The notes under the pieces are model-generated. The model was not told the DNA's origin. It ran no database searches and was given only the letters and a program-made list of their open reading frames with translations. Shown here in pieces: positions 35,692 through 63,615 of a DNA stretch of 64,000 bases (within the stretch, counting starts at the first letter, position 1; every line of letters starts with the position of its first letter). Source of the stretch: Callorhinchus milii (lineage: Eukaryota); the NCBI RefSeq assembly GCF_018977255.1, contig NW_024704743.1, forward strand, positions 12,340,001-12,404,000, in the 5' to 3' direction. A program made the position numbers and the translations under genes.

Positions 35692-35763
35692 GACCTCAGT
35701 TCCTTTGCGATGCCTTTCCTGGATGGAGATGTGGAAAGCTCTGAGAAAGATGGATCTCGAAAG
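35692..35763 (+). CDS. PRKAG2: PRKAG2 (AMPK gamma-2) exon 2, [24 protein letters not shown]
   Basis: Acceptor tttactatcag, donor aag|gtaggg, 72 nt, phase 0/0. The peptide closely matches human PRKAG2 exon 2 as recalled ([24 protein letters not shown]). Not in the ORF track. Confidence 0.95.
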
Positions 35764-40090: not shown

Positions 40091-40379
40091 GGGGAAGACG
40101 CCTCTCATTCCGCAAGTCCTTCCAAAGGATTTTTTTCCCGGAATTTCCACAACCGGCCATCCAGCCCGGTGTCCGCTCCGGCGAGGTCCAAGCATAGCCC
40201 CAGCTCTCCCAGGTCGGTGTTTCCGTTTCCTCAGGATTCTCCACCCAGGCCTTCCCGCCGGATGAGCTTCACTGGGATGTTCCGTTCTTCGTCTAAAGAC
40301 TCACCGTCCCGGGATTCATCCGCCAGCTCCAGCTCCACCTCGCCCGTCTCCATCCGCTTCTTTTCCCGGACCAGGAAAG
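40091..40379 (+). CDS. PRKAG2: PRKAG2 exon 3, [17 protein letters not shown]...[17 protein letters not shown]...IRFFSRTRK
   Basis: Acceptor tctctttcag, donor aaag|gtagat, 289 nt, phase 0/1, inside ORF 40040..40414. Motifs [29 protein letters not shown] and IRFFSR match the gamma-2 N-terminal extension. Confidence 0.96.
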
Positions 40380-52680: not shown

Positions 52681-53419
52681 TAACCAAGGTTAATTGGTCC
52701 ATTTATCAGATCAGTTCTTTTATTAACCACTGTCATAACATCAACAACAACAAAAAATTACATTTATAAAGCGCCTTTCATGTTGGGATGATGTCCCAAG
52801 GCAAACCCCTTATTATCCCACTGCATAATGAGGGTTTGCACCCTAGCTGTGGGTTGGGATCAGAGAGGGGTGGAGGCAAGACGGGAGTGGGTGTTGTGCG
52901 GAGGAGGGAAGATGACCAAAGTGTTGGTCAAAAAGTGATGGTCAAAAAGAAAGGTCCTAAGACTGGCCTTGAAGGAGGTAAGGGAGGGGGCGAGACGGAG
53001 GGATTCCAGGATGGAGTACCAGAGGGTGGGGGCAGAAAGACTGAAGTCCCGACCGCCGAAGGTGTAGCAGACCAGTACCTTGACGGTTAGAGCATCTGCC
53101 TCGCAAGCGAGAGAACCTGGGTTTGATTCCCAGGCAGGACGAAACTTTAGGCAAGTTTCCTTACTCCAAGCGCCAGTTTACCTAGCAAATAAGCTGGAAC
53201 CCGGTTTGTTATTCGATTGGCGGATCGCTTTCCAGGAGTAATAATCCCTCCAAAAATAAAATAATAATATAATTTGGTCACTCAATCCATGACTGTTTGT
53301 TGGCCACTGCTGTGTCACTACACTTTATAGTATATTTTGTAAAGCACTTTGAGGCGTCTCGAAGATGTGATGAGGTGCAATATCAAATGCCAGGATTATT
53401 ATTATTATTATTACCCTGT

Positions 53420-54017
53420 CCTGCAGATCCCTCACGTTGTGTTTCTCAGGAGGAGCTTTAATCAAAATAGACGTGATGTCATCCCATAATGAGACGGCCT
53501 CCAATGGCTGGTCAGGCTTGTCAGCAAGGAGGTGGTTTCCTTTTACAGCCTCCTCTGTCCAGGCTATTTTAAAGAGACATTGAGCACAGCTGCACATGAC
53601 AATCTGCAATCAGAGGCAGTGTGTGTCTCTCCTGCAATCGCAACAGCAGTCACAAGCAGGAGCGTAGAATTCTGCCTGGGAGCTCGTCTATCTCTTTTTC
53701 TCTCTCTCTCTTTCTGTGTGACTGAACCTCGCTCCTGACGGATTTTCCCTGACTGGAGACAAGTGGAGTGGAAGGAGGGGCTGGGTGGTTGGGTTTGGGG
53801 GGGTAGCAACCTGAACTGAGACAAACCCACAGTGGTTAGCGTGCGCGTGTTGAGAAGAAATTCCCTGCTGAGGTGTTGGACGGAGGATCGATTTCGGTAG
53901 ACCTCGCCCGGGGGGACCCTCTGGCTGGCCACAAGGTGCCCAACGCACGCCTCCCAGCGCCCTGACTCCTGGCATGGGCTGCCCTCGCCGCCACCCTAAC
54001 CCTCGCTGCTCTTGTCC
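53420..54017 (+). promoter_or_regulatory. PRKAG2: Putative internal promoter and 5' UTR of the exon-3b transcript
   Basis: Repeat-free island with TGATGTCA (53474), CCAAT (53501), TATA/MEF2-like CTATTTTAAA (53564) and E-box CAGCTG (53587). CpG-enriched at about 53830-54010. Confidence 0.6.
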
Positions 54018-54021
54018 ATGA
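53974..54021 (+). other. uORF MGCPRRHPNPRCSCP* overlapping the exon-3b start codon
   Basis: ggcATGg at 53974, 15 codons, and TGA at 54019-54021 overlapping the ATG at 54018-54020. Confidence 0.6.
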
Positions 54022-54111
54022 AGCGCTTTGGAAGCTTACGAGGGAGCAAGAAACGGAAGGACCAGGAAGTAAAGGCAGAGAGACGCCAGTCGGAGCCTCA
54101 TGGCCTTCTAG
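54018..54111 (+). CDS. PRKAG2: PRKAG2 alternative first coding exon (exon 3b-like, gamma2-3B), MKRFGSLRGSKKRKDQEVKAERRQSEPHGLL + 1 nt
   Basis: ATG at 54018, 31 codons plus 1 nt, donor g|gtaaag. Phase 1 matches exon 3, so it can splice to exon 4. It lies in intron 3 after a repeat-free CpG-rich stretch. Length and sequence resemble the ~32-aa unique N-terminus of gamma2-3B as recalled. Confidence 0.85.
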
Positions 54112-54586
54112 GTAAAGGTGTCAAGCTTTAATGGGGGTGCAGGGGGAATGGAAGGGGGCGTGGAGGGAATGGAAGCGAGGGTGTAGGGGTAATGGACGCG
54201 GGGACATAGGGGAAATGGAGGGAGCGCGGGGATTTGCGGGATTTTTGAAATGCACTTTCCAATATCCCAGTTCTGCATGATGCTGCATTCTGCTGGAATG
54301 CTGCTCAGATTCCAGTCTCATTTCTGATTTCCAGATACCAATCCCCACTTTGAGATCCAATTCCAAATCTCCAGATCCAAATCCCTGACCTCAAAATCCA
54401 ACTCCCGACCTCGAGGTCCCATTGCCAACCTCCAGATCCCATTCCCAACTTCCCATCGGTCAAAGGAGTCTCCGGCAGGAGATTGTGATCCGAATGTGCT
54501 CCAGTAATAGATGTGTATCCGTGACCCTGGGTGCTAAGTTATTAGTGAATCCTTTTAGGAATCACCGCATGTCAAAGGCGGGTGAA

Positions 54587-61820: not shown

Positions 61821-62029
61821 TTGCCCAAACATATTGCACATGTCGTGTACACAGTGTCCATATTGAATCAGCTTAGCTCAGTTGGTAGCACCCTTGCCTC
61901 TGAATCACAGATTTATGAGCTCAAGTTTGGACTTGCACAGTCTATGCTGACACTACTACAGGGCTGGGTGAGTGCTGTTTTCAGAGATGCTGTCCATCAG
62001 GTGAGAGTTTGATAAAACGGAAGCCATAG

Positions 62030-63615
62030 TCTTTGGCTCCCGTCAATGTCTTCTCTCCTGTAGTTCAGATCTCCTCGCCCTCCCCGAACTGCCCGCCCTC
62101 CCCGAACTGCCCGCCCTCCCCGAACTGCCCGCCCTCCCCGAACTGCCCGCCCTCCCCGAACTGCCCGCCCTCCCCGAACTGCCCGCCCTCCCCGAACTGC
62201 CCGCCCTCCCCGAACTGCCCGCCCTCCCCGAACTGCCTGCCCTCCCTGACCTCTCCCTGAGACTCACCGACCCCAATCCCCAGCTATTATACCACACAAC
62301 TGGTCCCTGGCCAAGACCTCCACCTTCACCACATCGTCTGCCTCCATCAGTACCTCACTCCCAAAAGCTGCTGAAACCCTCGTCCATGCCTTTGTCATCT
62401 CCTGCCTCGACTACTCAAATGCCCACCCCTCTGACCTCCTACTATTCACAAAATTCAACTAATTCAAAACTCCACTGCCCGTATTCTCACCCGCACTAAA
62501 CTCCGTACCTCCATTACCCCAGTCCTTGTCAAACTCCATTGGCCCCTGTCACAGAGCGGATCGATTTCAAGATCCTCACTCTTGTATTTAAATCCCTTCA
62601 TGCCCTGGCACCCCACTATCTCTCCAACCTGCTCCCTGCTCTCTCCCTACACTACAACTAGTTGCTCCCACTCCACTGGCTCCAGTCTCTTCCTTGTCTA
62701 CTCTACCTCTCTGTCTTCACCCTTGTCTCCAGGACCACTGCTGTCCTGACAGAATGTCTTTCGGATATCAAGTCCTGGATGAAAGCTAACTTTCTTCAGT
62801 TGAACGTCAACAAGACCGAGGCTCTCCTGATTGACTCCCATCAGCGGCTCCTCACCTCAAGCGCTGACAGCATCATCATCCATGGTTGCACGCTCCACCT
62901 TGCTAAGCCAGTAGGGAACCTTGGGGTCTTGTTTGACCCTCAACTATACTTTTTACCCCACATATGCGCCATGACCCGCTCTGCCTTCCCCCATTTCCGC
63001 AATGTTGCCCGTCTCCGACACTGTCTCACACTGCAGACTGCCGAAACCCTCATACACTCCTTCATTACATTGAGGCTCGACTATGCAAACTCATCGCTTG
63101 TCGGCTTCCCCAACTCCTCCCTCCACAGGCTGCAGATCATCGAGAACTTTGCAGCCTGTGTCCTCTCCTGCACTAGGCTCACAACCCTATCACCCCCATC
63201 CTTGCCCAATTCCACTGACTTCCCATCACACAGAGGATACAGTCCCAAGATCCTGATCCTCACCTTTAAAGTCATCCATGGTCTAGCTCCCCACTACCTC
63301 TTCGACCTCCTAATCCCCTATCACCCTGTTCATTCCCTCTGCTCACCGGGCTCTGTAATTTTATTATTGTTGCTGTCCTCTGGACTCCCACCCCACCATC
63401 GGTGGTCGAGCTTTCAGATACTACGCCCGAAGCTGTGGAACTCTCCCTCAATCCCTTCAAATTGCCCATTTCTAACCTAATTTTTAGGTCGTGCTCGAAG
63501 ACCTTCCTCTTCGACTGTGCGTACAGTCATCTTCCCCTGGCTCGACATTGGACTCTGCCACTGTTAAGTGCTCCGAGATATGAAGGGCGCTGTATAAATG
63601 CAATTTGTTGTTATT
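62030..63615 (+). mobile_element. Two L2 ORF2 C-terminal pieces
   Basis: ORF 62662..63480 ([21 protein letters not shown]...RLDYANS), with tail ataaatgcaatttgttgtt. Confidence 0.85.
62076..62237. repeat. Perfect 18-bp minisatellite (cgccctccccgaactgcc) x9
   Basis: Nine identical units counted, with gaact at 62086 through 62230 in steps of 18. Confidence 0.95.

What the first reader, a model, noticed from the sequence alone, without database searches (positions are those of the whole stretch)
53420..54117. Internal PRKAG2 promoter and exon-3b (gamma2-3B) equivalent in an apparent cartilaginous fish
Seen: a repeat-free CpG-rich island, an ATG, 31 codons (MKRFGSLRGSKKRKDQEVKAERRQSEPHGLL) and a phase-1 donor compatible with exon 4. 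The ORF track misses it. Known (from memory): mammals have a heart-enriched gamma2-3B isoform with a ~32-aa N-terminus from exon 3b. Inference: this isoform dates back at least to the jawed-vertebrate ancestor. The peptide carries an NLS-like KKRK and basophilic kinase sites (RFGS, RRQS).
Basis: partly seen in the sequence, partly recalled or inferred. Interest (0 to 1): 0.7.

Follow-up and report, generated by a model that had tools for sequence, protein, structure and literature searches.

The report
Ancient AMPK exon with translation brake
This chimaera (cartilaginous fish) DNA holds the alternative first exon of the energy-sensor gene PRKAG2 that gives the heart-enriched isoform in mammals, already annotated in this lineage, and just before its start codon lies a tiny upstream reading frame, also present in a bird-like genome, human and mouse, that likely limits how much of the isoform is made.

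Summary
The exon is real. ATG 54018, 31 codons and a phase-1 donor are there. Three RNA-type contigs from two studies leave the genome at 54111 and continue into exon-4 sequence. The peptide is 31/31 identical to Callorhinchus milii UniRef isoforms and is annotated in sharks, rays, bony fish and tetrapods; it is 23/31 identical to human gamma2-3B. Jawed-vertebrate age holds but is implicit in databases. 'CpG island' is only partly right, the NLS is unsupported, and heart enrichment could not be tested. (1) A non-coding block at 53460-53636 is conserved in an amniote locus. (2) An out-of-frame upstream ATG sits at -44 here, -41 in that locus and -38 in human and mouse. It is always in the same frame, in better Kozak context than the main ATG, and open to a stop overlapping the main start. 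I found no report of it. It likely throttles gamma2-3B translation; its translation is not shown.

The parts
35692..35763 (+). PRKAG2 exon 2 (context)
   Evidence: tblastn of C. milii and ray long isoforms; AG/GT ends
40091..40379 (+). PRKAG2 exon 3 (context), phase-1 donor; skipped by the 3b transcript
   Evidence: 96 residues identical to C. milii P0030; matches the human gamma2 peptide of PDB 29ii_C
53460..53636 (+). Conserved non-coding block upstream of exon 3b; likely promoter/enhancer; holds an acceptor-like pyrimidine tract with AG at 53547-53548
   Evidence: 66% identity over 187 columns to L001, E 6e-9 against the whole window, the only hit besides the exon; score 48 vs maximum 24 in 1000 shuffles; exact blocks of 11, 10, 21, 10 and 16 nt; also seen through P0007 (38.9 bits vs maximum 30.8 in 200 shuffles)
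53685..53726 (.). CT microsatellite between the conserved block and the RNA-covered part
   Evidence: sequence; flagged as skipped repeat
53775..54111 (+). Exon 3b as covered by RNA-type contigs (5' end is a lower bound, not a mapped start site)
   Evidence: contigs of X1, X2, X3 begin at 53798, 53783, 53775 without 5' loose ends and all end at 54111 with the same loose end
53800..54250 (.). Modestly CpG-enriched stretch over exon 3b
   Evidence: GC 0.59, o/e 0.69; L001 o/e 0.63 vs 0.35 over the whole locus
53974..54021 (+). Conserved out-of-frame uORF, 15 codons; its TGA overlaps the main ATG (ATGA)
   Evidence: same frame and overlap in L001 at -41 and in human and mouse at -38 (counted by eye in Fig. 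S1A)
54018..54111 (+). Coding part of exon 3b: 31 codons + 1 nt, the gamma2-3B N-terminus
   Evidence: identical to C. milii P0003-P0005; 23/31 identical to human and to mouse (by eye)
54112..54117 (+). Phase-1 splice donor GTAAAG, joined to exon 4 outside the window
   Evidence: same donor position in L001

Best explanation
This is exon 3b of PRKAG2 in a chimaera: it is spliced at 54111 to exon 4 and encodes the 32-residue N-terminus of AMPK gamma2-3B, it is likely transcribed from an internal promoter that includes the conserved block at 53460-53636, and a conserved short upstream ORF ending on the main start codon likely represses its translation. How it would work: scanning ribosomes meet the upstream AUG first (G at -3 in all four species seen) and translate 13-15 codons. 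They stop at a UGA that shares its letters with the main AUG, which has a pyrimidine at -3 in all four. gamma2-3B would then be made mainly by ribosomes that leak past the upstream AUG, so its output could be tuned after transcription. The transcript leaves out exons 1-3, and with them the exon-1 NLS and the exon-3 14-3-3 sites described in mammals. It puts in their place a basic peptide (seven Lys/Arg in residues 1-14) with two invariant serines, S6 and S25, predicted to act as a phosphorylation-controlled targeting or 14-3-3-binding tag. Shown: exon, junction, orthology, sequence conservation of the block and of the upstream ATG. Inferred: promoter activity, uORF translation and repression, function of the peptide. 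The confidence given is for the whole chain; exon identity alone is about 0.98, own promoter about 0.9, a functional uORF about 0.6.
For: Junction: 3 of 3 RNA-type runs laid (two studies) stop at 54111 with the same loose end; with G54111 it reads A-S-G-H-S-T-P-P-T-P, the residues that follow both the 3b peptide (P0004) and exon 3 (P0030) in C. milii proteins; the fourth, DNA-like run is collinear. Orthology: 25 of 36 candidates, 18 hits, 63 of 71 candidates; every hit named by family is an AMPK gamma subunit, mostly gamma-2. M1, F4, S6, R8, K14, S25 and P27 are present in 58 of 58 distinct peptides. Against L001, 14 of 25 base differences in the exon are at third codon positions. First-exon status: in-frame stop 21 nt upstream, no 5' loose ends, and the peptide starts the protein in nearly all annotated records. 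uORF: inside the RNA-covered part; same frame at -44, -41 and -38 with 15, 14 and 13 codons; shuffles give such a uORF at -53..-35 in 3.5% (window) and 2.9% (L001) of 5000. In-frame read-throughs of other vertebrates carry a dipeptide compatible with that ATG at -18..-12 codons in 8 of 11 records, 4 of 7 lineage representatives vs 1.2 expected, P 0.013. Out-of-frame uORFs that substantially overlap the main ORF typically repress it and are bypassed by leaky scanning (PMC10275272, passages). S25 is reported as an exercise-regulated, PKA-like site (PMC11752127, passage).
Against: Contig ends are not start sites; they lie beside a polymorphic G-run (53796-53804) and may be assembly breaks; the runs are only guessed to be RNA and their tissues are hidden. 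The overlap of stop and start follows automatically from Met-Lys (ATG-A), so it is not independent evidence. The 100 nt before the ATG do not align to L001 better than shuffles (41% of 3000 reach the score), and the uORF peptides are not conserved. The dipeptide test is indirect, its range was set, and 3 of 11 records fail; one cyprinid-like record has an in-frame Met there instead. The human and mouse heart uORF tables reproduced in PMC10547706 list PRKAG2 only for the long transcript, and the catalogue in PMC10032668 only an exon-1 uORF and an antisense-gene ORF. The overlap here is only 4 nt, so reinitiation is not excluded. The RRxS form of the S25 site is absent in 5 of 58 peptides (two rays, two monotremes, one catfish model). 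The MEF2-like site at 53564 is not kept in L001.
Confidence: 0.62

Rival explanations
1. Exon and promoter are real, but the upstream ATG is kept as part of a DNA- or RNA-binding element or by chance and has no effect on translation.
For: No ribosome evidence; not listed in heart uORF tables; uORF peptide not conserved; about 20% of shuffled 243-nt leaders contain some uORF of this type.
Against: The distance to the main ATG differs by exact multiples of three (-44, -41, -38) and the frame stays open in all four species, while the bases between have diverged.
Confidence: 0.2
2. The uORF does not simply repress: ribosomes that end on the AUGA overlap restart at the weak main AUG (coupled termination-reinitiation), so the uORF feeds or buffers gamma2-3B synthesis.
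For: Stop and start share nucleotides as in viral AUGA junctions (PMC10275272); the uORF is short; the main AUG context is weak in all four species.
Against: The described AUGA cases follow long ORFs and need a structured upstream element; the exon folds less stably than its shuffles (z +1.73); ATGA follows from Met-Lys.
Confidence: 0.12
3. The conserved block is a splice acceptor rather than a promoter element: exon 3 or an unknown upstream exon splices to 53549, giving an extended exon 3b that would hit an early stop (a poison exon) or a longer leader.
For: The longest exact block (21 nt) is a pyrimidine tract ending in CAG at 53548; the gap after it is 15 nt, a multiple of three; read in phase 1 it stops after 11 codons here and 24 in L001.
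Against: Conserved blocks lie on both sides of the AG, 60-90 nt upstream and 20-55 nt downstream; the tract is short and preceded by a G-rich stretch with other AGs; the length from that AG to the 3b donor is in different frames in the two species (563 vs 613 nt). This reading can coexist with the best explanation.
Confidence: 0.12
4. The basic patch is a classical NLS and gamma2-3B is a nuclear-targeted AMPK form.
For: K-K/R-x-K/R in 53 of 58 peptides; some nuclear staining in mouse cardiomyocytes (PMC3853370, passage).
Against: Staining is mainly striated at Z-disk/T-tubule/SR, with none in skeletal-muscle nuclei; gamma2 proteins were almost all in the cytoskeletal fraction; the gamma2 NLS is assigned to exon 1. 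The antibody data are themselves questioned (PMC13142926).
Confidence: 0.2
5. The ORF is a chance intronic reading frame, or the joined contigs come from a processed DNA copy.
For: Runs are only guessed to be RNA; the table of joined forms in other runs was not given.
Against: Peptide conserved from chimaera to human at the same length and phase; the DNA-like run is collinear.
Confidence: 0.01

Closest known systems
Mammalian PRKAG2 gamma2-3B, exon 3b (Pinter et al. 2012, PMC3477313; parts 1-3 of 5 of the text and part 1 of 2 of the supplement read)
   Same: Position in intron 3, 31 codons + 1 nt, phase-1 splice to exon 4, 23 of 31 residues identical to human and to mouse.
   Different: Tissue pattern and protein are unknown in the chimaera. 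In the parts read the paper compares only human and mouse and does not mention the upstream ATG visible in its Fig. S1A.
Annotated cartilaginous-fish isoforms: C. milii V9KC43, A0A4W3HMI8, A0A4W3I627; Heterodontus XP_067871159.1; Mobula XP_062900538.1; Hypanus XP_059827811.1
   Same: Identical (C. milii) or 81-94% identical N-terminal peptide, joined to the same exon 4.
   Different: Their names as shown do not call them gamma2-3B; protein records say nothing on the leader or promoter.
Repressive out-of-frame uORFs bypassed by leaky scanning (PMC10275272, passages); cardiac examples GATA4 and FLCN (search listing only)
   Same: Short AUG-started out-of-frame ORF in the leader that does not end before the main start.
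   Different: Overlap is only the four letters ATGA; position and frame, not the peptide, are conserved; translation is not shown.
Viral termination-reinitiation at AUGA/UAAUG junctions with TURBS (PMC10275272, passages)
   Same: Stop of the first ORF shares nucleotides with the start of the second.
   Different: The first ORF is 13-15 codons, not a long gene; no stable structure upstream.
PRKAG2 exon-1 uORF (c7riboseqorf151) of gamma2-long
   Same: Same gene, uORF in a leader.
   Different: Different transcript, 68 codons, listed as primate-young; unrelated to the 3b uORF.

Membership tests
PRKAG2 gamma2-3B (exon 3b) | Alternative exon inside intron 3 | tested here: met
   Exons 2 and 3 upstream; exon 4 not in the window
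PRKAG2 gamma2-3B (exon 3b) | 32 unique N-terminal residues homologous to the mammalian peptide | tested here: met
   31 codons + 1 nt; 23/31 identical to human and mouse (compared by eye)
PRKAG2 gamma2-3B (exon 3b) | Spliced in frame to exon 4 | tested here: met
   Same loose end at 54111 in 3 of 3 RNA-type runs, equal to the C. milii exon-4 start
PRKAG2 gamma2-3B (exon 3b) | Transcription starts at this exon (own promoter) | tested here: inconclusive
   No 5' loose ends, ends within 23 nt in two studies, conserved upstream block; contigs cannot map a start
PRKAG2 gamma2-3B (exon 3b) | Heart-enriched expression | not testable with these tools
   Run tissues are coded
CpG island | At least 200 nt, GC above 0.5, o/e above 0.6 (thresholds recalled) | tested here: met
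   Only for about 53800-54250 (o/e 0.69); not for 53420-54117 (0.51)
CpG island | Strict form: at least 500 nt, GC 0.55, o/e 0.65 (thresholds recalled) | tested here: not met
   No 500-nt window here passes; 53751-54250 has o/e 0.64
Conserved repressive uORF | AUG inside the transcript leader, out of frame, not ending before the main AUG | tested here: met
   53974-54021 within RNA-covered 53775-54111
Conserved repressive uORF | Kept across distant species | tested here: met
   L001, human and mouse; bony fish only indirectly
Conserved repressive uORF | Translated by ribosomes | tested here: inconclusive
   Not listed in the published tables searched; their transcript choice and length limits were not checked
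Conserved repressive uORF | Represses the main ORF | not testable with these tools
   Needs reporter assays
TURBS-type termination-reinitiation | Long upstream ORF with a structured RNA element before the overlap | tested here: not met
   15 codons; folding z +1.73
Classical monopartite NLS | K-K/R-x-K/R motif (consensus recalled) | tested here: met
   53 of 58 distinct peptides
Classical monopartite NLS | Drives nuclear import | not testable with these tools
   Published localisation is mainly non-nuclear

The most novel reading that the evidence does not exclude
gamma2-3B, a major cardiac form of the cardiomyopathy gene PRKAG2, has been under uORF control since the ancestor of jawed vertebrates: a position- and frame-conserved upstream AUG whose stop overlaps the start codon gates its translation, perhaps stress-dependently. 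The rise of 3b mRNA reported in failing hearts would then not map directly onto protein, and variants or antisense oligonucleotides at that AUG would change cardiac AMPK make-up.
Probability: 0.4. Interest if true: 0.72.

Novelty: new member of a known kind. Interest (0 to 1): 0.48.

Why it matters
Why mutations in the widely expressed PRKAG2 cause a heart-restricted disease is an open question, and gamma2-3B is a leading candidate (PMC3477313); its promoter share rises from 28% to 59% in failing human hearts (bioRxiv 2020.03.17.988790, passages). The exon in a chimaera shows long purifying selection on the 32-residue tag and singles out S6 and S25, but that much can be read from existing annotation. 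The new, directly testable points are a conserved uORF in the human and mouse leader and a short conserved non-coding block. They give exact targets for reporter assays, Ribo-seq re-mapping and a search for non-coding variants.

Tried and rejected
No whole genome was held, so exon 4 could not be located on DNA. The look-up of sequencing runs listed no holder on record as RNA; 4 of the 12 listed runs were laid. No RNA-type contig covered 53420-53774, which is no evidence either way. A MEF2-type site at 53564-53573 (9 in the window, 0.08 expected per 600 nt, motif recalled) first looked attractive, but it falls in a 15-nt gap in L001 and was dropped; of the two E-boxes only CACATG is kept. Transcription-factor names for the conserved blocks (MEF2-like, AP-1/ATF-like, NFAT-like, E-box) are recalled and untested. 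Upstream read-throughs of teleost-like records gave no significant match to the conserved block. A protein search with a frame of L001 through the block found 1 unnamed record and no annotated protein, so nothing suggests it is coding. The only out-of-sample record for the dipeptide test (P0130) has an exon-2-like upstream part and was not counted; P0091 and P0092, near-copies of P0080 and P0083, were left out. The S6 tally was circular (records picked by that motif) and was replaced, still limited to hits found by similarity. No lamprey, hagfish or invertebrate record, and none named gamma-3, was among the named hits; a few are named 'gamma-1' or 'gamma-1-like' but carry the gamma2 exon-4 sequence or cluster with gamma-2 records. 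Clustering hides isoforms, so an older origin is neither shown nor excluded. No stable leader structure. No earlier scan finding matched. The primary human-heart Ribo-seq paper was not held; its uORF table was seen only as reproduced in PMC10547706. Three supplementary files of PMC11473369 and one of PMC10547706 were not searched, one file was cut when stored, and bioRxiv supplements are closed; any of these may list the uORF. No structure or complex prediction was run, since the proposed binding depends on phosphorylation.

Full report
Observation. The ATG is at 54018. The stretch 53414-54583 has no self-match in a window that is 54% repeats and is the second-longest such stretch. The CpG claim is weaker: 53420-54117 has o/e 0.51, only about 53800-54250 reaches 0.69 (window 0.41), and several other stretches score as high.

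Gene context. Long isoforms from C. milii, rays and marsupials place PRKAG2 exon 2 at 35692-35763 and exon 3 at 40091-40379; exon 3 is identical over 96 residues to C. milii P0030 and matches the human gamma2 peptide in PDB 29ii_C. Exon 3 and the new exon both end in phase 1. Exon 4 is outside the window. The animal is C. milii or a very close chimaera, inferred from these identities.

Splicing. Of 12 runs listed, none on record as RNA, four were laid. Three guessed to be RNA, from two studies, each gave one contig covering 53798, 53783 or 53775 to 54111, with no loose end on the 5' side and the same loose end behind 54111. With G54111 that end reads A-S-G-H-S-T-P-P-T-P, the residues that follow the 3b peptide in P0004 and exon 3 in P0030. 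The fourth run is collinear across the stretch, as DNA would be. Contig ends are not start sites, they lie next to a polymorphic G-run, and tissues are hidden, so the promoter position and heart enrichment remain open.

Orthology and age. Pinter et al. 2012 (PMC3477313; text parts 1-3 of 5; supplement part 1 of 2) define gamma2-3B as starting in exon 3b within intron 3, spliced in frame to exon 4, with 32 unique residues. Their human and mouse peptides are each 23 of 31 identical to the window's (compared by eye). Searches returned 25 of 36 candidates, 18 representatives and 63 of 71 candidates. The peptide is identical in three C. milii UniRef entries and is annotated in horn shark, rays, sturgeon, gar, eels, bonytongues, otocephalan and salmonid teleosts, amphibians, reptiles, monotremes, marsupials and placentals. 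Presence in both cartilaginous and bony fish dates it to the jawed-vertebrate ancestor at least. It is therefore already in the databases. I found no paper stating this age (searches; the library lacks most subscription papers).

The peptide. Among 58 distinct peptides from 95 of 134 stored records (all found by similarity), M1, F4, S6, R8, K14, S25 and P27 are invariant; RRxS-E/D-P is in 53, K-K/R-x-K/R in 53, KKRK in 38. A review passage reports S25 as an exercise-regulated site in human muscle that fits PKA (PMC11752127; primary paper not seen). 14-3-3 binds T97 and S122 of the long forms (PMC13142926, passages), which lie in the exon that 3b skips. S25 followed by Pro two residues on resembles a 14-3-3 mode-I motif, and S6 a PKC-type site (both recalled). 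An NLS role is weak: the gamma2 NLS is assigned to exon 1 and 3B staining is mainly at Z-disk, T-tubule and SR with some nuclear signal (PMC3853370, passages), although those antibodies are questioned. I favour a phosphorylation-controlled targeting tag; this is inference.

Conserved non-coding block. A genomic read-through record, P0007, matched 53482-53628 through its upstream part (38.9 bits; maximum 30.8 in 200 shuffles). A metagenome scan then gave one locus among 156 pattern matches, L001, an amniote sequence that looks bird- or crocodile-like by its peptide. Against the whole window it has two hits: exon 3b (77%) and 53460-53636 (66%, E 6e-9; score 48 vs maximum 24 in 1000 shuffles), with exact blocks of 11, 10, 21, 10 and 16 nt. 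The block ends about 140 nt before the RNA-covered part, as a promoter or proximal enhancer would. A MEF2-type site in the window is not kept in L001. The longest block also reads as a splice acceptor (AG at 53547-53548), which I keep as a rival.

Conserved upstream ORF. The only upstream ATG in the RNA-covered leader is at 53974 (-44). It is out of frame, has G at -3 and +4, and runs 15 codons to a TGA that overlaps the main ATG, which has T at -3. L001 has an ATG at -41 in the same frame, 14 codons, same overlap, and the alignment pairs the two. In Fig. S1A of Pinter et al., counted by eye, human and mouse both have one at -38, same frame, 13 codons, open to the same overlap, G at -3, with C at -3 of the main ATG. 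The frame of that text is confirmed by the tree-shrew record P0084, which ends Q-L-P before the Met as the human line does. Shuffles produce such a uORF at -53..-35 in 3.5% and 2.9% of 5000, and anywhere in 243 nt in 22% and 18%. Read-through records carry a compatible dipeptide at -18..-12 codons in 8 of 11 cases, 4 of 7 lineage representatives against 1.2 expected (P 0.013), and 2 of 11 for the other frame; the range was chosen after and the grouping was by eye.

Evidence against the uORF. The overlap with the start follows from Met-Lys alone. The 100 nt before the ATG do not align better than shuffles (41% of 3000). The peptides differ. One cyprinid-like record has an in-frame Met instead. 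The published tables searched list only a different, exon-1 uORF or the long transcript or no PRKAG2 ORF, with some files not searched. Full-text searches gave three papers holding both PRKAG2 and uORF: one was read by passages and does not link them, two were seen as listings only; searches added nothing.

Mechanism. Most likely an internal promoter makes a transcript starting in exon 3b, which splices to exon 4 and swaps exons 1-3 for a short basic tag. Ribosomes meet the better-context upstream AUG first and end on the main start, so gamma2-3B would be made by those that leak past. A review states that out-of-frame uORFs which substantially overlap the main ORF typically work this way, while AUGA-coupled reinitiation is known after long viral ORFs with a structured element (PMC10275272, passages), which is not evident here (z +1.73). 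With an overlap of only four letters, reinitiation remains a rival.

Verdict. The added value lies in the conserved uORF, which extends to the human and mouse transcripts of a cardiomyopathy gene whose 3b promoter share doubles in heart failure, and in the conserved upstream block. Both are new members of known kinds of element and neither is yet shown to function. Interest 0.48.

Noticed in passing
window 40184-40201 (exon 3): Human T97, one of the two 14-3-3 phosphosites of gamma2-long, aligns to His here, while S122 (RRMS) is kept; devil-ray long isoforms have Gln and marsupial ones Asn at that place, so the two-site 14-3-3 clamp may be recent.
   Followed up: partly
window 53531-53551: A 21-nt block identical in L001 reads as a splice acceptor; splicing from exon 3 would give an early stop in both species.
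   Followed up: partly
protein hits: No named spiny-rayed (acanthomorph) fish is among the hits, although eels, bonytongues, otocephalans and salmonids are; exon 3b may be lost or diverged there. Weak, since clustering hides isoforms.
   Followed up: no
P0021, P0056, P0110, P0112, P0130: Two rays, two monotremes and one catfish model lost one Arg of the RRxS motif before S25 but keep S25 and P27.
   Followed up: no
P0032, P0051, P0059, P0060: Shark and ray isoforms of 413-414 residues have another short N-terminus (eight residues) joined to exon 4, hinting at one more alternative first exon in intron 3; no match was found in this window.
   Followed up: partly
L001 2581-2592: An in-frame ATG four codons before the main start in L001, also seen in P0081 and P0087, could give a four-residue extension in that lineage.
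   Followed up: no
PMC3477313 Fig. S1A (human leader): Human, but not mouse within the 97 nt shown, has a second upstream ATG at -93 opening a 10-codon ORF that ends before the conserved one (counted by eye).
   Followed up: no
window 62000-62260: A tandem array with a nine-base unit inside a LINE-like fragment gives a long repetitive reading frame and one of the highest CpG counts of the window.
   Followed up: no
window 53796-53804, 53864, 54232-54233: Length and base differences between the window and the laid runs, none in the coding part or the uORF.
   Followed up: no
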